Below are positions 49,986-58,467 of a stretch of 64,000 nt of DNA, piece by piece. The stretch comes from a virus (lineage: Duplodnaviria; Caudoviricetes), in IMG/VR virus record IMGVR_UViG_3300027759_000043. One strand, given 5' to 3'. A program made the position numbers and the translations under genes. Under the pieces are notes generated by a model. That model did not search any database, had not been told where the DNA came from, and saw nothing but the letters and a program-made list of their open reading frames with translations. Position 1 is the stretch's first letter, and the number at the start of each line of letters is the position of its first letter.

Positions 49986-50528
49986 ATGGCAGAACAAAAA
50001 CAATTATCACGCTCGGAGCGTGAAGCACAGATCAAAGACAAAGCCGGGTGGGTCATTGTGGTCATGGCAGCCTTGTTGGCCATCAACACATATCTGGGCA
50101 ATGGCAATAGCAGTCGTATACTAAACGACACAATTGAAGCCAACAATACCTGGGCGTTTTATCAAGCAAAATCAATCAAAGGTACACTGGCCGAAATGGC
50201 CCTGGATGATGCCATGGCTCGCAAGGATGTTGCCAAGGTTGCGGCAATCAGTAAAAAGATCGCACGTTATGAGTCAGACCCTGCCACCGGCGAAGGCAAG
50301 AAAGAACTAATGGCCAAGGCACGTGCTCTTGAAGCAGATCGTGCAGTGGCCAAGCAACGTAGTCCTTGGTACACATACGCAGGCAGTCTGTTGCAGATTG
50401 CTATTGTTTTGCTCACTGCCAGTATACTCAGCGTGAAGAACAGTTTGTATCGAGCCAGCATAGGTGTTGGCTCTTTTGCCTTGCTTTTAATGAGCCAGGC
50501 CATTTGGTTATGGATACCAGGAGTATAA
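49986..50528 (+). CDS. DUF4337-like membrane protein
   Basis: ANNTWAFYQAKSIK with flanking TMs. Confidence 0.7.
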   Translation: MAEQKQLSRSEREAQIKDKAGWVIVVMAALLAINTYLGNGNSSRILNDTIEANNTWAFYQAKSIKGTLAEMALDDAMARKDVAKVAAISKKIARYESDPATGEGKKELMAKARALEADRAVAKQRSPWYTYAGSLLQIAIVLLTASILSVKNSLYRASIGVGSFALLLMSQAIWLWIPGV

Positions 50529-50529
50529 T

Positions 50530-51273
50530 ATGGCATTACCAGGAATAGCAATAGGTGGCGGAATCACCGTGGGTGGGGGCATTTACTTTGGATGGACACC
50601 TCCTCCACCTGCGCTGGTTCTCAATCTTGACGCAGCCAACTATAGTGCCATGCCTGCAAATGGAAGCACTATAGCAGGCGATGGCGGCTTTGCCATAACA
50701 ACACTCAATCCCGGTGGTAGTATGAGTTGGGATCCTGCAGACGGCGGAATATTCCGTAAAACTGCACCCACTGGAACAGACTTCTTGACATTTGGACCCG
50801 ATTACTCAGCAACATCACAGGCTTATACTGTGATGATGGTCTACAGATCACAACCCAGTTCAGCAGGTAGATTGCTAAACGCTAACAGTGCCGCTCCAGA
50901 CTGGTTATTGGGCTTATGGGGCAGTCCTAGTTATGTTCAGGACATTTTCTTTAACGGCAACTTTGTTGGTGCAAATAATACTGCGGCTGACAATAACTGG
51001 CAATTTATATGGGCAACATACAACGGCAATGCAGGGTCACCAGTGTCGCAAAGTTATGTTGCCAATTCAACTGTGCCCACAACCACGTTTGGCACCGATA
51101 CCACAAGCGGTGGCTTTGACGGCTTGAGATTGTTTGGTAGATATGACAGCCCCACTGGCAGTTCAGAGAACCCAACGTCAGATGTGGGCTTGGTCAAAGT
51201 GTGGAACTACGTGCTAACTTTGGGTGCTATACAGGGTCAGTGGAACACTTATCGAGCAAGATTTGGATATTAA
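50530..51273 (+). CDS. LamG/concanavalin-like virion protein
   Basis: LVLNLDAANYS...VGLVKVWNYVLT. Confidence 0.7.
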   Translation: MALPGIAIGGGITVGGGIYFGWTPPPPALVLNLDAANYSAMPANGSTIAGDGGFAITTLNPGGSMSWDPADGGIFRKTAPTGTDFLTFGPDYSATSQAYTVMMVYRSQPSSAGRLLNANSAAPDWLLGLWGSPSYVQDIFFNGNFVGANNTAADNNWQFIWATYNGNAGSPVSQSYVANSTVPTTTFGTDTTSGGFDGLRLFGRYDSPTGSSENPTSDVGLVKVWNYVLTLGAIQGQWNTYRARFGY

Positions 51274-51296
51274 CAAGGAAATAACAGGAGTATAAT

Positions 51297-52067
51297 ATGG
51301 CAATCAACATTGGACCCGGAATCAACATTGGCCCAGGCATTACCGTAGGTGGCGGACTTGTTGCCACCGGCAGCATGAATTTTACCCCGGCTGCCGCGTA
51401 TCTACAGACACCCGTCAGTAGCCCAGGTTCTACCAATATTAATCTGCTGACCGGCGGGCAATTGACCACTTCAAGTGTATTCACGTTGGAAGCATTTATC
51501 AACATCACTTCATTCAATGGAACCAAGACTGGTCTCACCGGCGAAGAAAGTTGGATCATAGGCAATTACTCAGCAGATCTGGCCACAACTCCTTGGGGAT
51601 GGAATGTGCAGAGCAATGGTTATTTGCAACTGTTTATATACAATGGTTCATATAACAAATTGGTGGCAACCACAACACAACTGTCTGAAGGCGTCTGGTA
51701 CTATGTGGCCATGACCATAAATGGATCCAGTGTTTACTTGTTTGTGAATGGCACCTTGCAAACAAATCAGCCATCGGGCGCCAATATTATTACCACAAAT
51801 GTGGGTTCATCACAAGTGACTGATCAATTGACACTGGGATCCAGTTCCGCTGGCAGATATTTCAATGGCTACATGAGCAGTGTACGTGTCACCAAGTCAG
51901 CCCTGTACACTTCAGGATTCACTGCACCATCAGCACCATTGCCCAACATAGCCAACACTTCGTTGTTGCTACAAGTGAATTCAGCCGGCACGTACCTGGC
52001 TGATTCCAGCAACAACAACTTTACCATGACCAATAGCGGTGTAATTTACAGCACACTACATCCGTAA
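51297..52067 (+). CDS. LamG/concanavalin-like virion protein
   Basis: FTLEAFI...WYYVAMT...LFVNG...FNGYMSSVRVTK. Confidence 0.8.
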   Translation: MAINIGPGINIGPGITVGGGLVATGSMNFTPAAAYLQTPVSSPGSTNINLLTGGQLTTSSVFTLEAFINITSFNGTKTGLTGEESWIIGNYSADLATTPWGWNVQSNGYLQLFIYNGSYNKLVATTTQLSEGVWYYVAMTINGSSVYLFVNGTLQTNQPSGANIITTNVGSSQVTDQLTLGSSSAGRYFNGYMSSVRVTKSALYTSGFTAPSAPLPNIANTSLLLQVNSAGTYLADSSNNNFTMTNSGVIYSTLHP

Positions 52068-52093
52068 ATCATAATAAATATTAAAAGGAGCAC

Positions 52094-52624
52094 ATGATGG
52101 CAGAAGAATATAACAAAATGAGCGATTCAGAAAAGAAAAAAGAAGACTGGATGAACTCCAAATGGAGACCGGCTTGTGGTTGGATGTATATCGTGGTCTG
52201 CTTGTTTGATTTTATGCTTGCTCCTATATTATGGAGTATAACACAGGCTGTGTTCCACGGTGGTGTAAATGTACAATGGCAGCCACTTACACTTCAAGGC
52301 GCAGGACTGTTCCATGTGGCCATGGGCGCCATCATTGGAGTAAGTGCTTATGGTCGCACACAGGAGAAACTGAATGGAGCCAACAACGGGGGCATCGCCC
52401 CACCCACCAGCGGAACAACATACACACCGCCTGCACCAATCCAACCCACTGCACCCACCGGCTTTGGCGCACCAAGCGGAGGCGGCTTTGGAAGCGCACC
52501 TGTCACTGCACCAGCGTCAGGCTTTGGGAGCAATACAGGACCTGGAGCACCAGCGTCAGCAGATGTGGTCACAGGATTCGGAGGCAAACCCGCACCGGTG
52601 ATACCATCATTCCCGGCAATATAA
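52094..52624 (+). CDS. Putative 3TM holin with Pro/Gly-rich tail
   Basis: WMNSKWRPACGWMY...LFHVAMGAIIGVSAYGRTQEK; TAAATA at 52075. Confidence 0.7.
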   Translation: MMAEEYNKMSDSEKKKEDWMNSKWRPACGWMYIVVCLFDFMLAPILWSITQAVFHGGVNVQWQPLTLQGAGLFHVAMGAIIGVSAYGRTQEKLNGANNGGIAPPTSGTTYTPPAPIQPTAPTGFGAPSGGGFGSAPVTAPASGFGSNTGPGAPASADVVTGFGGKPAPVIPSFPAI

Positions 52625-52654
52625 AATAAATAATCTATAATATTTAGGAAAATA

Positions 52655-53443
52655 ATGTCTTCGCCACCACCACCATATGACGACATAACCGGTATCAGTC
52701 GTACTGTCATGAAAGATAATGCACAGGAAACTGTGTATGATTACAATGGCAATGCACGTCCTGGCGAAATGGTGGCCGATTTGACCCAAGACCCACCTGT
52801 GGTCTACATAGGCAATAATCTGGGTCAACTCACACAGGTGTTCCCTAGTACCAGCGGTGGGCCAGTGGGCAACAGCGGCGCTGTGCAAATAAATTGGCTG
52901 GGCACCTTTAGCAATCAAGGTGGCACCCCCGGATCTACATATTCTACTATACAATTCAATAGTGATGGACTGGCCACTATCAATGGTACCAATGCGTTCC
53001 AATCCAGCAGTAATGTGACCTACTTGACAATCAATGCACCACAGGTGCAAAGCACCGACTTTGGCGTCCTATCAGGTCCTGGCGTCACTGTCGTGGGGTA
53101 TGACGACAACTACAATACTCCTCGCAGTGCTTATTTTAGTGTGCAGGATCAGGCCACTGCTACACAACAGTGGGACTTTGGTATCCTTGGGTCAGGCAGT
53201 AACAATTTTAGTGTGCGCAACAGAACTGCAGATTCTTTACCATTCACTGTGAACACCGATGGAACAGTTCAACTTCAAGTCATGGCAGTGGCATCATTAC
53301 CTGCGGCCACATCTGCTGGATTAAAAACTTTTGTCAACGATTCTAATCGAGTGGCATCAGGCAACTTTGGAGCAGTGGTAGGGAACGCTGGTTCAAATGT
53401 TGTGCCAGTTTATAGTGATGGTACAAACTGGCGTATAGGTTAA
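52655..53443 (+). CDS. Putative virion structural protein
   Basis: TAAATA at 52627; beta-rich; ends VYSDGTNWRIG. Confidence 0.65.
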   Translation: MSSPPPPYDDITGISRTVMKDNAQETVYDYNGNARPGEMVADLTQDPPVVYIGNNLGQLTQVFPSTSGGPVGNSGAVQINWLGTFSNQGGTPGSTYSTIQFNSDGLATINGTNAFQSSSNVTYLTINAPQVQSTDFGVLSGPGVTVVGYDDNYNTPRSAYFSVQDQATATQQWDFGILGSGSNNFSVRNRTADSLPFTVNTDGTVQLQVMAVASLPAATSAGLKTFVNDSNRVASGNFGAVVGNAGSNVVPVYSDGTNWRIG

Positions 53444-53463
53444 TTAATCAAAGGAAATAAAAA

Positions 53464-54435
53464 ATGAGAAAATTAAATATTATGTCTGTATTTGTTGTAA
53501 TAGCAATTGGTCTAGCATCATTTGTTGCAACAGCACAGAGTAATCAAACTCCGGTAAACATCACCACGGTCACTCCAGGTGGTGCAACAGCAATTACCAG
53601 TTATAGTAGTATGAATACCACATATACTTTTAATCTGCAAAACACAACAAACGCACAATTTTGTCAAGGCACAGACAACTGTGCATTACCCACTGCACAA
53701 ACAGGGGCAAATGCCTATACTATTTCTAACACACGCTGGGGAACATACAAACTCAACAACGCTGTTCCGGGTGCCTGTGCTCCAAGTATCACATACGGTG
53801 GTGTTCAATATTGCTTGTTGGAGTTTCATTTCCATGGTCCATCTGAACACTGGGTCAATGGCGGAGCAACAGATTTAGAAGTGCATTTTGTTTTCTTCAA
53901 TTTGGCAGATGCCACATCTGGTCCACGTGGATTGTGTAGTGCAAATTCACTATTGGTACTGGGTCAACGAATGGTGGGCAATGGTAACTCAGCAAATGCT
54001 GCCTGGACCAATGTGTTTAACGCAATTCCTGTTGCCAACGCTTCTGGAGCATACAGTGGAACTAGTCTTAGCCTTAACATTCAAACACTAATGGGTATCC
54101 CAGGTGGCAACATCAACGCCGCCCCAAGTTACAGATACCTTGGTGGGTTGACTGCACCAATTAGTATTGCTACTTTAGGACAAGCCAACGGCAATCAATC
54201 TAATAGTTGTGTGGCCAATAACAATCCCAACAATGGTCAGCCATGGTGGGGCAATCCGCAGAATCAATTGACCAATGGAGCATATCCAGAAATTGTGCAA
54301 TGGGTGTTGTTTAGACAACCAATACAGTTATCTGTGGCACAGGTAAATCAGTTCAAGGCAAAATTTCCAGATGGCAATGCTCGTTCAGTTCAACCCAACA
54401 CCGGCGTGACCATCAACTTGGCCAATCCAAACTAA
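53464..54435 (+). CDS. Secreted alpha-carbonic anhydrase
   Basis: Signal peptide; EFHFHGPSEH, LEVHFV, YRYLGGLTAP and VQWVLFRQPI motifs. Confidence 0.8.
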   Translation: MRKLNIMSVFVVIAIGLASFVATAQSNQTPVNITTVTPGGATAITSYSSMNTTYTFNLQNTTNAQFCQGTDNCALPTAQTGANAYTISNTRWGTYKLNNAVPGACAPSITYGGVQYCLLEFHFHGPSEHWVNGGATDLEVHFVFFNLADATSGPRGLCSANSLLVLGQRMVGNGNSANAAWTNVFNAIPVANASGAYSGTSLSLNIQTLMGIPGGNINAAPSYRYLGGLTAPISIATLGQANGNQSNSCVANNNPNNGQPWWGNPQNQLTNGAYPEIVQWVLFRQPIQLSVAQVNQFKAKFPDGNARSVQPNTGVTINLANPN

Positions 54436-54447
54436 AGGAAAATCAAA

Positions 54448-54645
54448 ATGAACTATATCATATCAGTATTTGCACTAGTTGCTGTGATTGCGACCAATCC
54501 GGTCCGGTCCGAAGAGCATGAAACCAAAAAGGTCTGTGTTGATGTTGTTAAAGATGGCCAGCCTGTTAAAGATGCCAAAGGTGTTGTCAAACAAAACTGC
54601 AAAGACGTCAAGCAACACAAAAAACTAGAAGTCGAAAAGAAATAA
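54448..54645 (+). CDS. Small secreted basic protein
   Basis: Signal peptide, two Cys, AAGGA RBS. Confidence 0.7.
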   Translation: MNYIISVFALVAVIATNPVRSEEHETKKVCVDVVKDGQPVKDAKGVVKQNCKDVKQHKKLEVEKK

Positions 54646-54674
54646 TAGACATCCGGCCACAAGTCCTGTATAAT
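54646..54674 (+). promoter_or_regulatory. Sigma70-type promoter of dnaJ-clpA
   Basis: TAGACA-17-TATAAT. Confidence 0.7.
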
Positions 54675-54694
54675 TAACACATACAGGACTTTTT
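54661..54694 (+). terminator. Hairpin with T-run overlapping the -10 box and RBS
   Basis: AAGTCCTGTAT-N9-ATACAGGACTT followed by TTT. Confidence 0.55.
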
Positions 54695-54695
54695 C

Positions 54696-55478
54696 ATGCC
54701 CGATCACTATGCAACGCTGGGTGTTGCTCGAACTGCCACTGCTGATGAGATCAAACGGGCTTTTCGCAAACTAGCCAGTAAAAATCATCCGGACAAGGGT
54801 GGTGATACTAAAAAATTTCAAGAGATCCAGGTCGCCTATGATGTGCTAGGCGATGTGGCCAAACGGTCTCAGTACGACAATCCACAACCACAGTTCGGTG
54901 GCGGACCAAACTTCAATGCCAACTTTGATTTCAACACCATCTTTGACATGTTTGGTGCCAAGTTTCAACAACAGCATCCACAACGCCCACAACACTCAAG
55001 AATGACTCTTTGGATCACCTTACAGGATGTGGCCTACCCTGGACCCAGAACAGTAAGCATGGGCACCCACACAGGCGCACACAATGTACAAGTGAACATT
55101 CCCAATGGCATCGAAGATGGTGATCATGTGAAATACGACAACATTGCTCCAGGTGGTCAAGACCTGGTGATCACCTATAGAATTCATCCCAATCCACGCT
55201 GGCAACGCAACAGTGCCACACTCATAACCGAAACACCTGCCAGTTTCTGGTGCTTGGTTGCCGGTGGTGATATCACAGTTGTGGACATTCTTGGCAATCA
55301 ATTGGCTCTGACTGTGCCGGCCAATACCGCACCCGGAACGCTGTTACGTGCTAGAGGTCGCGGATTACCGGACAGATCAGGCACACGTGGAGACATGCTG
55401 GTTCGACTACAGGCCACTTTGCCTGCTGTAGTTTCTCCAGAATTAATGGCTGCTATCAAACAAGAAATTGGTGGCTAA
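54696..55478 (+). CDS. dnaJ: DnaJ/CbpA-type J-domain co-chaperone
   Basis: DHYATLGV...HPDKGGD; C-terminal DnaJ_C; no Zn finger. Confidence 0.9.
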
Positions 55479-55496
55479 GTAATTGAGCCATAAAGG

Positions 55497-55525
55497 TTGC
55501 GGATCAAATCAAATTCATGTATAAT
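55497..55525 (+). promoter_or_regulatory. Sigma70-type promoter
   Basis: TTGCGG-17-TATAAT. Confidence 0.6.
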
Positions 55526-55559
55526 CAATTGTATGACAACCTCTTCAGGACAAAACCAC

Positions 55560-57833
55560 ATGCAACACAACCCGGAAATTGAAAGTATTATTGAAAACGC
55601 GGTCAAAATTGCCCGCACCTGGCAACACGAATATGTGTTGACTGAACATGTGTTACTGAGTCTTATTAGACACGAACCATTTCGTCGCTGTTTAACTAAA
55701 TTTGGCACAGACGTGGCCATGTTTGAAACTGAACTGTGTGCTTACCTGGACAGTTGTCAAAGTCTAGTTAGTAGTGATCCAGATATCACACCCAGAAAAA
55801 CCACAGCCCTTGAACGCACATTCAATCGTGCTTTAACACAGGTGTTGTTTACTGGACGCAGGTCAGTTACCACAATTGATTTGTATCTTGCGCTCATGGG
55901 CGAGGGCAACAGTCACTCGCACTACTTTTTGCTCAAGTACGGGGTTACCAAGCAGGAGTTTGTGGAGTTTTGGCAAGTGAACTATGCTCAAGGTGAAGCC
56001 AACCGGATGAGCGATCGTCAGGCCACAGAAGTGCTGGATGAACATTGTGTGAGTCTCACTGCCATGGCACAGAAAGATCGCCTGGAGCCGCTAATTGGTC
56101 GTGCCACTGAACTGGAAGAAATGATTGCTGTGCTGGCACGACGCTTCAAGGCCAATGTGCTCATGGTGGGTGATCCTGGTGTGGGCAAGACCTGTATTGT
56201 GGAAGGCCTAGCACAGGAGATCTCGGCTGGACGTGTGCCTGAGTTCTTGAAAGATCACGAAGTATGGTCATTGGAAATTGGCTCGTTGTTGGCAGGAAGC
56301 AAGTATCGCGGTGAGTTTGAAGAAAAGTTCAAGCAGGTGATCCAGGCCCTGGAAAGCAAGAAGAAGTGTATCTTGTTTATTGATGAAGCACACACCATGC
56401 AGGGTGCTGGCGCAGGATCAAATGGCGCCTTGGACTTTGCCAACATGCTAAAGCCTGCTATCACTAGAGGCAGTTTGAAAGTTGTGGCAAGTACTACATG
56501 GGAAGAATACTATGGTAGTTTTGAAAAGGATCGTGCGTTGATGCGTAGATTCTATCGTCTAGCCATTGATGAACCAGATACAGCAACTACAGAAAAGATT
56601 CTTATTGGTCTCTCACCTAGACTGGAAAAATTCCACAATGTCATGATTGACACCGAGGCCATGACAGCCGCAGTGGAACTGAGTGGACGCTACATACACG
56701 ACAAGAAGAATCCTGACAAATCAATCGACTTACTGGATGCGGCCTGTGCTAGAGAGCGTGTGAAGGATCAGGGCCAACTCACTGTGACCAAGGATCTAAT
56801 CATGGCACAAGTGGCCCGTGTAACAGGTGTGCCAGTGGATCGCTTGCAGAACGAACGCTCGGCCAAGATTGTGGACTTGGAAAGCAATATCAAGCAGAAG
56901 TTATACGGACAAGATGGCGCTGTGGACTCTGTGCTGGAACGTGTGTACATCAACTTCTCGGGCATTGGCAACCCCAATCGTCCAATGGCCAGTTTCTTGT
57001 TCCTGGGTCCTACAGGCACAGGTAAAACAGAATTGGCCAAACTACTGGCCACTAACTTGGACATGCACTTGTTGAAGTATGACATGAGTGAATATCAAGA
57101 ACGCCACACGGTATCGAGCCTGATTGGTGCTCCTCCGGGCTATGTGGGCTTTGAAGACGGCAACATTGGTGGTGGCAAATTGATCTCAGACATCAGCAAG
57201 AACCCTTTTGCTGTGATCTTGTTTGACGAGATTGAAAAAGCACACCCTGATGTCAGCAATATCTTGTTACAGATGCTGGACGAAGGGCACATTACATCAA
57301 GCAATGGCAAACGAGTTGATGTCAAGAACTGTATCATTATCATGACATCAAACTTGGGTTCACAAGATTCAGAAGCCAACAACATTGGATTTGGCAGTTT
57401 TGAAAAGACAGGCGAAGATGATAAAGCACTTAAGAACTTTTTTAAACCCGAACTACGTAATCGTATCGATCAAATCTGCAAGTTCGTTAAACTGGACACT
57501 TTGGCCATCAAGAAAGTTGTGGTCAAGTTTGTGGACGAACTCAAGACAAGTCTGCATACAAAAGGCATACGTCTCATGCTTTCCGAGGGCGTCGTTGACA
57601 TGCTTGCTGACCGGGGCTATGATTCGAAGATGGGTGCGAGACCACTCAGCCGCAAGATTGATGAATTAATCCGTGTACCGCTATCCAAGAAGATTTTATT
57701 TGAACGCTTGAGTGACTGCGATATTGTAGCCACCATGGTGGACGATGCTGTGCATTTTGAAATCACCCCCAGAGTGGAAACTGCTCCTATAGTGGGAGAT
57801 GATGGCATTATCAGGGTTGCCAATGAAGTTTAA
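55560..57833 (+). CDS. clpA: ClpA-type Hsp100 AAA+ ATPase
   Basis: Clp N-domain (EHVLLSL); GDPGVGKT/IDEAH; GPTGTGKT/LFDEIEKAH; GARPL. Confidence 0.9.
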   Translation: MQHNPEIESIIENAVKIARTWQHEYVLTEHVLLSLIRHEPFRRCLTKFGTDVAMFETELCAYLDSCQSLVSSDPDITPRKTTALERTFNRALTQVLFTGRRSVTTIDLYLALMGEGNSHSHYFLLKYGVTKQEFVEFWQVNYAQGEANRMSDRQATEVLDEHCVSLTAMAQKDRLEPLIGRATELEEMIAVLARRFKANVLMVGDPGVGKTCIVEGLAQEISAGRVPEFLKDHEVWSLEIGSLLAGSKYRGEFEEKFKQVIQALESKKKCILFIDEAHTMQGAGAGSNGALDFANMLKPAITRGSLKVVASTTWEEYYGSFEKDRALMRRFYRLAIDEPDTATTEKILIGLSPRLEKFHNVMIDTEAMTAAVELSGRYIHDKKNPDKSIDLLDAACARERVKDQGQLTVTKDLIMAQVARVTGVPVDRLQNERSAKIVDLESNIKQKLYGQDGAVDSVLERVYINFSGIGNPNRPMASFLFLGPTGTGKTELAKLLATNLDMHLLKYDMSEYQERHTVSSLIGAPPGYVGFEDGNIGGGKLISDISKNPFAVILFDEIEKAHPDVSNILLQMLDEGHITSSNGKRVDVKNCIIIMTSNLGSQDSEANNIGFGSFEKTGEDDKALKNFFKPELRNRIDQICKFVKLDTLAIKKVVVKFVDELKTSLHTKGIRLMLSEGVVDMLADRGYDSKMGARPLSRKIDELIRVPLSKKILFERLSDCDIVATMVDDAVHFEITPRVETAPIVGDDGIIRVANEV

Positions 57834-58467
57834 AACAGTTGAACGTAATCAACTGTTCTTTGGACAGTATCAGTACTGTATCACCTGGTACTTGAAAAAC
57901 GTGAGTGTGTTGCGAGATCTGGATCCTATCAAGGCACTGAAATCCATACAGTATCGCAACCAGTGGGCACCCAACGCACACTATCGACAACGCATAACTG
58001 AAGAAGAACAGCATGACTTAATTCGTGCGTGTGATTATTTGTTGTCTCGTGCGAACCCGTTCAAGCGCACAGTCAGCAATCACATGATGTACATCTATAC
58101 CAACAATCCCCGAGATTTTGATGATCTGGGCACTGTGGCTGATTCAGTTGTGTGCAATCGCACACAGGTCAACGTGAGTTTACAGCCCGACGCTGTCACA
58201 CTCAAAAACCCTGCTCACAGTTACAGAACATTCTTTCGAGAGCGTTGGTTGAGAGATCATGAACTTAAAGGACTGCGTGAGTATTTTCAAGCCAGATCAG
58301 ATCAATTTAGATTCAGCCCAGGGTTCCAATTGTTAATAAACGGCAATCGCATGTGGCTCATGGGCAACTATTTTGTGGATCATAACGAGCCCCAAGCAGA
58401 TTTCTTGATCAACATGGCCATCCCGGGCATAGTAAAAAAGACCCTGCCCATTGTGGCTCGCAACTAA
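57823..58467 (+). CDS. Hypothetical protein
   Basis: Overlaps the clpA stop. Confidence 0.75.
   Translation: MKFKTVERNQLFFGQYQYCITWYLKNVSVLRDLDPIKALKSIQYRNQWAPNAHYRQRITEEEQHDLIRACDYLLSRANPFKRTVSNHMMYIYTNNPRDFDDLGTVADSVVCNRTQVNVSLQPDAVTLKNPAHSYRTFFRERWLRDHELKGLREYFQARSDQFRFSPGFQLLINGNRMWLMGNYFVDHNEPQADFLINMAIPGIVKKTLPIVARN

What the first reader, a model, noticed from the sequence alone, without database searches (positions are those of the whole stretch)
53464..54435. Phage-encoded secreted alpha-carbonic anhydrase with a large active-site-proximal insertion
The three Zn ligands (HxH at 53827/53833 and the H of EVH at 53884), the E of SEH and the gatekeeper Thr (GLTAP) are retained, along with a signal peptide. 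The canonical TTPPCSEGVxW is interrupted by about 40 Asn/Gly-rich residues before EIVQW. Alpha-CAs are periplasmic bacterial or eukaryotic enzymes, and I do not know them as an established phage auxiliary gene. It could alter periplasmic pH or CO2/HCO3- supply during infection. It sits among late structural genes.
Basis: partly seen in the sequence, partly recalled or inferred. Interest (0 to 1): 0.66.

Follow-up and report, generated by a model that had tools for sequence, protein, structure and literature searches.

The report
Secreted alpha-carbonic anhydrase in giant phage
A giant T4-like lake phage carries, on a small swappable late-gene cassette, an exported zinc carbonic anhydrase of the alpha ("animal/periplasmic") class with a rebuilt active-site entrance; I found no report of this enzyme class in phages, and its activity and purpose are untested.

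Summary
ORF 53464-54435 (+) encodes a 323-aa alpha-carbonic anhydrase (Pfam PF00194, 60.5 bits against a cut-off of 27). The AlphaFold model (pLDDT 89.5) matches human CA II at Z 23.9, 1.9 A over 211 residues.

The protein keeps the three zinc histidines, the Glu/Thr gate and the CO2 pocket, and has a Sec-type signal peptide. A 42-residue insert follows GGLTAP.
- a second 30-residue insert at the proton-shuttle site, where His64 is replaced by Gly;
- Gln92 replaced by Glu;
- bacterial relatives (Terracidiphilus MAGs) already carry half-size versions of both inserts.

The carrier is a phage: related 335-347 kb contigs with this gene encode a T4-type capsid protein. The gene is accessory. 63 of 65 related loci and five near-complete relatives lack it. 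In this window it lies in a 1.9-kb segment with a possibly fibre-like gene, behind a TAAATA late-type promoter, between the holin and a chaperone operon. dN/dS is 0.10-0.16, inserts included.

Most likely it is an active periplasmic CO2/bicarbonate enzyme. Its purpose is unresolved. First readers of this scan noted the same family in at least two other genomes, and theta-type CAs in other lake phages.

The parts
52094..52624 (+). Holin-like gene (176 aa, one clear TM segment, Gly/Pro-rich tail). It is the left neighbour of the cassette and adjoins the CA gene in most related loci.
   Evidence: PF11351 GTA_holin_3TM E 6.8e-7 and phrog_3427 holin E 7.9e-8. TAAATA lies 14 nt upstream at 52075. 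Synteny.
52627..52632 (+). TAAATA late-type promoter core, 23 nt before the ATG of the gene upstream of the CA gene. It is the probable promoter of the FIB262-CA-sec65 unit.
   Evidence: 12 of 26 + strand TAAATA copies lie within 60 nt upstream of gene starts, zones that make up 8.8% of the window (binomial P 6e-7). Where the CA gene stands alone (L004, L005, L006), TAAATA sits 18-40 nt before it.
52655..53443 (+). FIB262: a 262-aa protein of unknown function, possibly fibre-like, co-mobile with the CA gene.
   Evidence: It sits directly upstream of CA in the window and in L001-L003, L095 and L108. Residues 70-191 are 54% identical to the N-terminal part of a 1079-aa protein next to the CA homologue in L091, between gp14-like and gp15-like genes. 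Atlas look-alikes are viral, some with Mtd_N or T4_gp9_10_N, scores about 0.9, a lead only. The AF2 model failed, pLDDT 34.7.
53464..54435 (+). Alpha-carbonic anhydrase gene (323 aa precursor, about 299 aa mature).
53464..53535 (+). Sec-type signal peptide (residues 1-24, predicted cut A-T-A|Q25).
   Evidence: n-, h- and c-region pattern. Small residues at -1 and -3 and Gln at +1 are kept in homologues. dN/dS is 0.4-0.7 here against about 0.1 for the rest.
53653..53742 (+). Insert 1 (residues 64-93): 30 residues at the proton-shuttle strand, with C67 and C73, ending in R91-W92-G93. G93 aligns with His64 of canonical enzymes.
   Evidence: Residue table and alignment. dN/dS 0.02-0.31.
53827..53886 (+). 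Zinc-site block EFHFHGPSEH...LEVHFV. H122, H124 and H141 are the Zn ligands (His94/96/119). E128 = Glu106, E139 = Glu117, E120 replaces Gln92, V143 = Val121.
   Evidence: HMMER alignments to solved bacterial alpha-CAs. Invariant columns.
54151..54153 (+). T230, the gate threonine (Thr199) in GGLTAP. A231 replaces Thr200.
54160..54285 (+). Insert 2 (residues 233-274): 42 residues between Pro201-equivalent P232 and P275. It contains C249 and the conserved WWGNPQxQL helix.
   Evidence: The Pfam match splits here. pLDDT is 84/68/91/92 along it. dN/dS 0.02-0.26.
54448..54645 (+). sec65: a 65-aa Lys-rich protein with a signal peptide, last gene of the unit. Its 5' part lies inside the segment that has no match in L118.
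54661..54696 (+). Terminator-like hairpin (11-bp stem, then UUUUUC) that closes the unit. It overlaps a sigma70-like promoter for dnaJ/clpA-like.
   Evidence: Fold -17.2 kcal/mol, z -4.45. Promoter TAGACA-17-TATAAT at 54646-54674.
52615..54519 (+). Variable segment relative to the closest relative L118. This 1,905 bp has no DNA match, and L118 has 469 bp with a different small gene at this site.
   Evidence: blastn of the window against L118. Content of the L118 slot.

Best explanation
The gene encodes a zinc alpha-class carbonic anhydrase. It is made late in infection, exported by the Sec pathway and released into the periplasm of the infected Gram-negative host. There it speeds up CO2 + H2O <-> HCO3- + H+.

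It belongs to a divergent bacterial subclade in which two loops that flank the mouth of the active-site funnel are enlarged: the His64 strand and the loop after Thr199. A third segment after His119 is enlarged too. In the giant-phage lineage both loops were enlarged again. The proton-shuttle histidine is absent, so turnover probably depends on buffer or is slower than in fast alpha-CAs.

The gene is not part of the phage core. It travels as a small late-promoter cassette, here with a possibly fibre-like gene, into variable slots next to the lysis genes. A minority of related phages carry it.

The most likely use is to make the periplasmic CO2/bicarbonate/proton system kinetically fast. That would feed bicarbonate-requiring host biosynthesis, as the periplasmic alpha-CA Caa does in Ralstonia eutropha, or buffer periplasmic pH in poorly buffered lake water.

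Shown: family, fold, conserved catalytic residues, purifying selection, phage carrier, cassette behaviour. Inferred: export, late timing, enzyme activity, physiological role.
For: Family and fold:
- PF00194 at 60.5 bits against a cut-off of 27.
- Bacterial alpha-CA structures by sequence, 4c3t E 1.6e-9.
- Foldseek 1kop E 3.9e-16, TMt 0.77.
- VIA Z 23.9, rmsd 1.9 A over 211 residues with human CA II.
- Model pLDDT 89.5.

Catalytic set invariant in 74 sequences: H122, H124, H141, E139, V143, L229. E128, V165, T230 and W280 each have one or two exceptions, all outside the phage family.

Selection: dN/dS 0.10-0.16 overall and 0.02-0.31 in both inserts, against 0.4-0.7 in most pairs (0.38-1.66) for the signal peptide.

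Phage carrier:
- 18 IMG/VR loci.
- Contigs of 335-347 kb, 95-100% complete, one with terminal repeats, encode T4 Gp23 (E about 1e-97) and one alpha-CA each.
- Lysis genes surround the gene.
- GC of the gene is 43.5% against 44.1% for the window.

Origin: the phage clade is monophyletic (SH-aLRT 100). It groups (SH-aLRT 99, inner order unresolved) with a group carrying RWG, Glu120 and ~20-residue inserts, two members of which are Terracidiphilus MAG proteins.

Cassette behaviour:
- 1,905 bp is absent from the relative whose ClpA is 97% identical.
- Only 2 of 65 related loci carry the gene.
- 0 of 5 near-complete relatives carry it anywhere.
- At least four different genomic contexts were seen.

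Late timing: TAAATA enrichment, and TAAATA before stand-alone copies.

Role precedent: periplasmic Caa of R. eutropha supplies bicarbonate for growth (PMC3904209).
Against: - No activity, zinc content or localisation has been measured.
- His64 is replaced by Gly93 and no other histidine is conserved near it in sequence.
- Gln92 is Glu, and Thr200 is Ala.
- Two large inserts border the active-site mouth, so the substrate or the rate could differ from an ordinary CA.
- Late expression fits poorly with an enzyme meant to feed nucleotide synthesis.
- Tight linkage to holin or endolysin and to a possibly fibre-like gene hints at an envelope-related job instead.
- The host is unknown.
- Model coordinates could not be read, so how the inserts sit relative to the zinc site is inferred from where homologous residues lie in known alpha-CA structures.
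Confidence: 0.6

Rival explanations
1. The enzyme is an envelope or lysis accessory. It is made with the lysis proteins and acts in the periplasm to set local pH and bicarbonate, so that holin triggering, endolysin or spanin action, or the fate of released progeny is tuned. It may work together with the co-mobile, possibly fibre-like protein.
For: - The CA gene directly adjoins the holin-like gene and/or the endolysin in most contexts. The orders seen are endolysin-CA-(DUF4337)-holin in L101-L103, CA-holin-DnaJ in L104/L106, holin-CA-DnaJ in L007-L009 and FIB262-CA-holin in L002/L003.
- It sits behind a late-type promoter.
- The FIB262 domain recurs next to a 43%-identical CA in a neck/tail cluster in L091.
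- Unchecked notes of this scan report theta-type CAs beside fibre genes in other freshwater T4-like phages.
Against: - 63 of 65 related loci with the same endolysin...holin-sec65-DnaJ-ClpA backbone lack the gene.
- Five near-complete relatives lack it entirely. Lysis in this group therefore does not need it.
- Slots next to lysis genes are common landing sites for accessory genes, so the linkage may be positional only.
- No known lysis mechanism uses a carbonic anhydrase.
Confidence: 0.2
2. The enzyme has a changed substrate. The rebuilt funnel (two inserts, no His64, Glu for Gln92, Ala for Thr200) adapts the zinc-hydroxide centre to a substrate other than CO2, for example an ester or another small electrophile of the envelope or the medium.
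For: - Both inserts flank the funnel mouth by homology to residues 62-65 and 199-206 of CA II, and their lengths co-vary (Spearman 0.84 over 74 sequences, 0.74 without the phage rows).
- The inserts are under strong purifying selection.
- Alpha-CAs have known side activities such as esterase and cyanamide hydration (general knowledge).
Against: - The CO2-pocket residues V143, L229 (invariant) and V165, W280 (one exception each outside the phage family), and the Thr/Glu gate, are kept as in true CAs.
- Bacterial relatives with half-size inserts are ordinary secreted single-domain proteins.
- No co-conserved partner enzyme points to another substrate.
Confidence: 0.1
3. It is a non-catalytic binding protein on a carbonic anhydrase fold, like poxvirus D8 or the CA-related proteins of animals.
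For: The BFVD fold search returns only eukaryotic-virus CA-fold proteins, including the poxvirus cell-surface-binding protein OPG105. The neighbouring gene is possibly fibre-like.
Against: All three zinc histidines (invariant) and the Glu/Thr gate (three exceptions outside the phage family) are kept across 74 sequences, down to 43% identity within the phage family, under dN/dS of about 0.1. Non-catalytic relatives characteristically lose these residues.
Confidence: 0.05
4. It is a cellular gene on a mis-binned or chimeric contig, or a host gene at a prophage border.
For: Eight other 'viral' alpha-CA loci (L110-L117) are of this kind. In L111 the CA gene lies beside PTS and glucosidase genes and an integrase.
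Against: - The family sits deep inside 335-347 kb T4-like genomes, one with terminal repeats.
- Phage lysis and chaperone genes flank it on both sides.
- It has phage-like GC and a phage promoter motif.
Confidence: 0.02

Closest known systems
Periplasmic bacterial alpha-carbonic anhydrases (Neisseria gonorrhoeae CA, PDB 1kop; Thermovibrio ammonificans, 4c3t; Ralstonia eutropha Caa)
   Same: Same Pfam family and fold, with 20-28% identity in structural alignments. Same zinc triad, Glu106/Thr199 gate, CO2 pocket, Sec signal peptide and single domain. Caa is a periplasmic enzyme needed for bicarbonate supply.
   Different: About 75-100 residues longer. It has a 30-residue insert in place of the NxGH(T/S) shuttle motif (His64 becomes Gly93) and a 42-residue insert after Thr199-Ala-Pro. 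Gln92 is Glu and Thr200 is Ala. Three other cysteine pairs appear to replace the usual Cys23-Cys203 disulfide. It is encoded by a phage.
Uncharacterised bacterial alpha-CA subclade with RWG / Glu120 / TAP and ~20-residue inserts (for example Terracidiphilus sp. MAG proteins HTX76721.1 and MFZ1085726.1)
   Same: It groups with the phage family in a 99%-supported clade (SH-aLRT) whose inner order is unresolved. It shares R-W-G at the shuttle site, Glu for Gln92, Ala for Thr200, the GNPxxQL helix inside insert 2, the C67/C73 and C158/C249 cysteines, and a signal peptide.
   Different: Identity is only 32-38%. Insert 1 is 9-19 residues and insert 2 is 22-26, against 30-44 and 37-46 in the giant-phage crown group. 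It lacks the C105/C117 pair. At least one member is chromosomal, on a 2.5-Mb contig.
Phage and virus carbonic anhydrases reported so far
   Same: A CO2/bicarbonate enzyme carried as accessory cargo by uncultured aquatic phages.
   Different: It belongs to a different, unrelated enzyme class. [quoted passage not shown] It is exported by a signal peptide rather than being cytoplasmic or fused to a virion handle. No LCIB-type gene was detected in nine related giant-phage genomes, but that search had no positive control.
Poxvirus D8 / OPG105 and giant-virus CA-fold proteins
   Same: An alpha-CA fold encoded by a virus.
   Different: Those are proteins of eukaryotic viruses. D8 is a non-catalytic attachment protein (general knowledge). 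The phage protein keeps the whole catalytic set.

Membership tests
Alpha-carbonic anhydrase (Pfam PF00194, EC 4.2.1.1) | Sequence match to the family profile above the curated cut-off | tested here: met
   60.5 bits against 27, E 2.4e-16, in two stretches split by insert 2.
Alpha-carbonic anhydrase (Pfam PF00194, EC 4.2.1.1) | Ten-stranded twisted beta-sheet alpha-CA fold | tested here: met
   AF2 pLDDT 89.5. Foldseek 1kop E 3.9e-16, TMt 0.77. VIA Z 23.9, rmsd 1.9 A over 211 residues, model 25-322.
Alpha-carbonic anhydrase (Pfam PF00194, EC 4.2.1.1) | Three histidine zinc ligands (His94, His96, His119) | tested here: met
   H122, H124 and H141 are invariant in 74 sequences.
Alpha-carbonic anhydrase (Pfam PF00194, EC 4.2.1.1) | Glu106-Thr199 gate that orients the zinc hydroxide | tested here: met
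   E128 and T230 are kept in all phage members and nearly all others.
Alpha-carbonic anhydrase (Pfam PF00194, EC 4.2.1.1) | Hydrophobic CO2 pocket (Val121, Val143, Leu198, Trp209) and second-shell Glu117 | tested here: met
   V143, V165, L229, W280 and E139 are kept.
Alpha-carbonic anhydrase (Pfam PF00194, EC 4.2.1.1) | Typical but not defining: proton-shuttle His64, second-shell Gln92, Thr200, Cys23-Cys203 disulfide of secreted forms | tested here: not met
   Gly93, Glu120 and Ala231 stand in their place. Cysteines co-occur as C67/C73, C105/C117 and C158/C249 instead. Known active alpha-CAs such as CA III and CA V also lack His64 (general knowledge), so this does not exclude membership.
Alpha-carbonic anhydrase (Pfam PF00194, EC 4.2.1.1) | Zinc-dependent, sulfonamide-sensitive CO2 hydration | not testable with these tools
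   Needs purified protein.
Phage accessory ('moron' / auxiliary metabolic) gene | Lies inside a bona fide phage genome | tested here: met
   T4 Gp23 on the same 335-347 kb contigs. Lysis genes flank it.
Phage accessory ('moron' / auxiliary metabolic) gene | Present or absent among close relatives; own promoter and terminator; homologue of a cellular metabolic enzyme | tested here: met
   2 of 65 related loci and 0 of 5 further near-complete genomes carry it. A 1.9-kb segment is absent from L118. A TAAATA element and a hairpin bound the unit. Cellular sister clade.
Non-catalytic CA-fold proteins (poxvirus D8, CARPs) | Loss of one or more zinc ligands or gate residues | tested here: not met
   All are retained. 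It is not filed here.
Core lysis-cassette component (holin, antiholin, endolysin, spanin) | Present wherever the cassette is present; homology to a known lysis protein family | tested here: not met
   63 of 65 loci with the same cassette lack it. No PHROG lysis family matches.

The most novel reading that the evidence does not exclude
Local control of CO2, bicarbonate and pH at the cell envelope may be a general, so far unrecognised step in the life cycle of freshwater T4-like phages. It would have been reached at least twice, by capture of unrelated enzymes: this exported, funnel-remodelled alpha-CA that travels with a possibly fibre-like gene next to the lysis genes, and the theta/LCIB-type CAs that other notes of this scan place on virion handles. 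On this reading the alpha-CA works late, at lysis or on release or adsorption of progeny, not as a carbon-supply enzyme, and its inserts dock it to an envelope or phage partner.
Probability: 0.15. Interest if true: 0.8.

Novelty: new variant of a known kind. Interest (0 to 1): 0.55.

Why it matters
Carbonic anhydrases reported in phages so far are of the beta class and are listed only as putative auxiliary genes. This is a well-conserved, phage-only branch of the alpha class, with about 60 sequence clusters. It is exported, probably late, and mobile between giant lake phages.

It raises two testable questions. The first is what an infected cell, or the phage, gains from fast CO2/bicarbonate/proton equilibration outside the cytoplasm. 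The second is how an alpha-CA works without its proton-shuttle histidine and with two extra loops around the funnel mouth.

The bacterial sister group with half-size loops is also uncharacterised, so one structure and one kinetic study would define a new alpha-CA subclass. The protein is small, single-domain and disulfide-braced, which may interest those who use CAs for CO2 capture.

Tried and rejected
- Deposited phage genomes (INPHARED): no DNA match to 50000-58000 and no tblastn match to the protein.
- PHROGs, NCBIfam and PADLOC: no family for the CA protein.
- Canonical T4 late promoter TATAAATA: 0 copies in the window. The shorter TAAATA core is the enriched element.
- FIB262 structure: the AF2 model from a 6-sequence alignment failed, pLDDT 34.7, so no fold search was made. 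Pfam and PHROGs found nothing for it. Atlas hits are weak leads only.
Their origin rests on two NCBI names.
- No whole genome is held for the window. Relatives were used instead.
- LCIB/theta CA (PF18599) in nine related genomes: nothing found, but the search had no positive control, so absence is not shown.
It therefore did not sample the RWG subclade well.
The disulfide pairs are inferred from co-occurrence only.
- The host was not identified.
- Rejected: mis-binned cellular gene, non-catalytic D8-like protein, and obligatory lysis component (see rivals).
Full report
OBSERVATION. The ORF at 53464-54435 (+) is open, 323 aa, and preceded by AAGGA 8 nt before the ATG. Between P232 and P275 lie 42 residues, 38% of them Asn or Gly. 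The N-terminus (MRK, 17 hydrophobic residues, A-T-A|Q) fits a Sec signal peptide. Homologues keep small residues at -1 and -3 and Gln at +1 while the rest drifts. No signal-peptide predictor was on hand, so export is a heuristic call.

FAMILY AND FOLD.
- Pfam PF00194 matches at 60.5 bits against a cut-off of 27. The match comes in two stretches that break at profile position ~195, where the insert lies.
- By sequence, solved bacterial alpha-CAs are the best PDB hits (4c3t, E 1.6e-9).
- An AlphaFold2 model built on a 74-sequence alignment has mean pLDDT 89.5.
- Foldseek puts Neisseria gonorrhoeae CA first (E 3.9e-16, TM 0.77 on the target).
- VIA-align gives Z 23.9 and rmsd 1.9 A over 211 residues with human CA II, spanning model residues 25-322.
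- About 90 residues of the mature protein lie outside the common core.

ACTIVE SITE. In the 74-sequence alignment H122, H124, H141 (the zinc ligands His94, His96 and His119), H129, E139 (Glu117), V143 and L229 are invariant. E128 (Glu106), V165, T230 (Thr199) and W280 have one or two exceptions each, all outside the phage family. So the zinc site, the gate and the CO2 pocket are those of a working enzyme.

Three typical residues differ throughout the phage family:
- Canonical N-x-G-H-(T/S) aligns with N60...W92-G93-T94, so the proton-shuttle His64 is Gly93 and no other conserved histidine stands near it in sequence.
- Gln92 is Glu120.
- Thr200 is Ala231.

Active alpha-CAs without His64 are known, for example CA III and CA V (general knowledge). 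This argues for slower or buffer-dependent turnover, not for an inactive protein.

TWO INSERTS, NOT ONE.
- Besides insert 2 (residues 233-274) there is insert 1 (residues 64-93) at the shuttle strand, and a longer segment after His119 (residues 144-162).
- By homology with CA II residues 62-65 and 199-206, both inserts border the mouth of the funnel. This is an inference, because the model coordinates could not be read.
- Their lengths rise together across the family. Canonical enzymes have 2 and 2 residues, an 'NTGS' group 5 and 2, intermediate groups 8-23 and 18-43, the RWG/Glu120 group 9-19 and 22-26, and the giant-phage crown group 30-44 and 37-46.
- Spearman correlation of the two lengths is 0.84, or 0.74 without the phage rows. 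These are related sequences, so the value is descriptive only.
- Cysteines co-occur as C67/C73, C158/C249 (which would tie insert 2 to the 150s segment) and C105/C117 (crown group only). The usual Cys23-Cys203 pair is absent.
- Both inserts are under purifying selection, dN/dS 0.02-0.31, like the core at 0.05-0.19. The signal peptide is relaxed, mostly 0.4-0.7 (range 0.38-1.66); the whole gene scores 0.10-0.16.

ORIGIN.
- A maximum-likelihood tree (quick search, SH-aLRT only) separates all insert-bearing sequences from canonical ones (99). It makes the phage family one clade (100) and groups it (99, inner order unresolved) with the RWG/Glu120 group.
- Two members of that sister group are named Terracidiphilus sp. 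MAG proteins, one on a 2.5-Mb contig.
- The basal phage-side members P0062 and P0061 still have bacterial-size inserts. P0062 lies on an IMG/VR contig. P0061 was not found on one.
- So roughly half of the 'phage insertion' is ancestral and bacterial, and the giant-phage lineage doubled it.
- The gene's GC content (43.5%) equals that of the window (44.1%), so the capture is not recent.
- A scan of 185,579 species genomes gave no match above 34% identity among the 80 loci it kept.

THE CARRIER IS A PHAGE AND THE GENE IS ACCESSORY.
- Around the gene lie Rz-like and Rz1-like spanins, a GH19-type endolysin, DUF4337, two lectin-like proteins, a holin-like protein, then DnaJ and a ClpA/B-like ATPase.
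- IMG/VR holds 18 loci of this CA family, on contigs up to 347 kb.
- Three such contigs, 95-100% complete and one with terminal repeats, encode a T4 Gp23-type capsid protein (E about 1e-97) and exactly one alpha-CA each.
- Eight further 'viral' alpha-CA loci are canonical. In L111, the one examined, the CA is a host gene at a prophage border.
- Of 65 related loci found through the ClpA-like gene with at least 5 kb upstream, only 2 carry the CA.
- Five near-complete relatives of 320-353 kb have none anywhere.
- Against the closest relative L118 (ClpA 97% identical), window 52615-54519 has no DNA match. L118 holds 469 bp with a different small membrane-protein gene at that site.
- The CA gene occurs in at least four contexts: after a 262-aa gene (FIB262); between endolysin and holin; between holin and dnaJ; and, at 43% identity, between gp14-like and gp15-like neck/tail genes next to a 1079-aa protein. 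That protein shares FIB262's central domain at 54% identity.

TRANSCRIPTION.
- TAAATA is enriched before genes. 12 of 26 copies lie in the 8.8% of the window within 60 nt upstream of gene starts (P 6e-7).
- One copy sits 23 nt before FIB262. None lies in the 20-nt gap before the CA gene.
- An 11-bp hairpin with a U tract follows sec65 (z -4.45). The unit is therefore probably FIB262-CA-sec65.
- Where the CA gene stands alone (L004-L006), TAAATA lies 18-40 nt upstream, and in L006 it follows a terminator-like hairpin.
It was not tested.

WHAT IS KNOWN.
- Other papers list viral CAs without class or study.
- BFVD holds no phage protein with this fold, only poxvirus OPG105/D8-type and giant-virus proteins.
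- JGI pipelines already label members 'carbonic anhydrase'. What is new is the recognition and the biology, not the annotation.
- Within this scan, first readers noted the same family in at least two other genomes. Follow-ups describe theta/LCIB-type CAs in other freshwater T4-like phages. Those notes are unchecked.

MECHANISM.
- Best reading (0.6 as a whole; identity about 0.95, activity about 0.7, role about 0.35): a late, exported, zinc-dependent CO2 hydratase. It makes the periplasmic CO2/bicarbonate/proton system fast, for bicarbonate supply as with R. eutropha Caa or for pH buffering.
- An envelope or lysis-linked role (0.2) is suggested by the linkage to the holin and the possibly fibre-like gene. 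It is weakened because nearly all relatives with the same lysis genes lack the enzyme.
- A changed substrate (0.1), a non-catalytic binder (0.05) and a cellular artefact (0.02) are less likely, for the reasons given under rivals.

LIMITS. There is no biochemistry, no host and no coordinates for the model. The tree has no bootstrap.

Noticed in passing
window 52615-54519 vs L118:6528-6996: The slot between the holin-like gene and the small secreted ORF is variable. The window holds FIB262 plus CA. The closest relative L118 holds a ~107-aa ORF with one TM segment and a coiled-coil-like tail.
   Followed up: partly
window 54448-54645: A 65-aa Lys-rich protein with a signal peptide (sec65) is kept between the holin and dnaJ in most of the 80 related giant-phage loci. 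It matches no family.
   Followed up: partly
window 54646-54696: A near-consensus sigma70-type promoter (TAGACA-17-TATAAT, 11 of 12) overlaps an 11-bp-stem terminator-like hairpin just before the dnaJ / clpA-like pair. This may be a combined stop-and-restart signal.
   Followed up: partly
window 54696-57833: A phage-encoded DnaJ (J domain plus C-terminal domain) and a 778-aa ClpA/B-like double AAA+ ATPase form a pair that is conserved at 69-97% identity (ClpA) in over 180 IMG/VR stretches.
   Followed up: partly
window, + strand, e.g. 6588, 21341, 25391, 28183, 30492, 52075, 52627, 60382: TAAATA is enriched 6-33 nt before gene starts (12 of 26 copies, P 6e-7). The full T4 late box TATAAATA does not occur at all in the 64 kb.
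   Followed up: partly
L110-L117 (e.g. L111:2719-3453): Canonical alpha-CA genes in isolate-derived IMG/VR records. In L111, the one examined, the gene lies beside PTS and 6-phospho-beta-glucosidase genes and an integrase, so it is a host gene at a prophage border, not phage cargo.
   Followed up: partly
proteins P0065, P0247 (not in the window): 1,690-aa proteins of the green algae Pseudoscourfieldia marina and Pycnococcus provasolii match the query in up to 12 separate alpha-CA stretches. They look like giant multi-CA-domain proteins.
   Followed up: no
window 50530-51273 and 51297-52067: Two adjacent genes start with Gly-rich G-x-G-I-x-V-G-G-G-type N-termini. The second is a concanavalin-A/LamG-like lectin domain that matches parts of large virion structural proteins. 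They sit between the endolysin and the holin.
   Followed up: no
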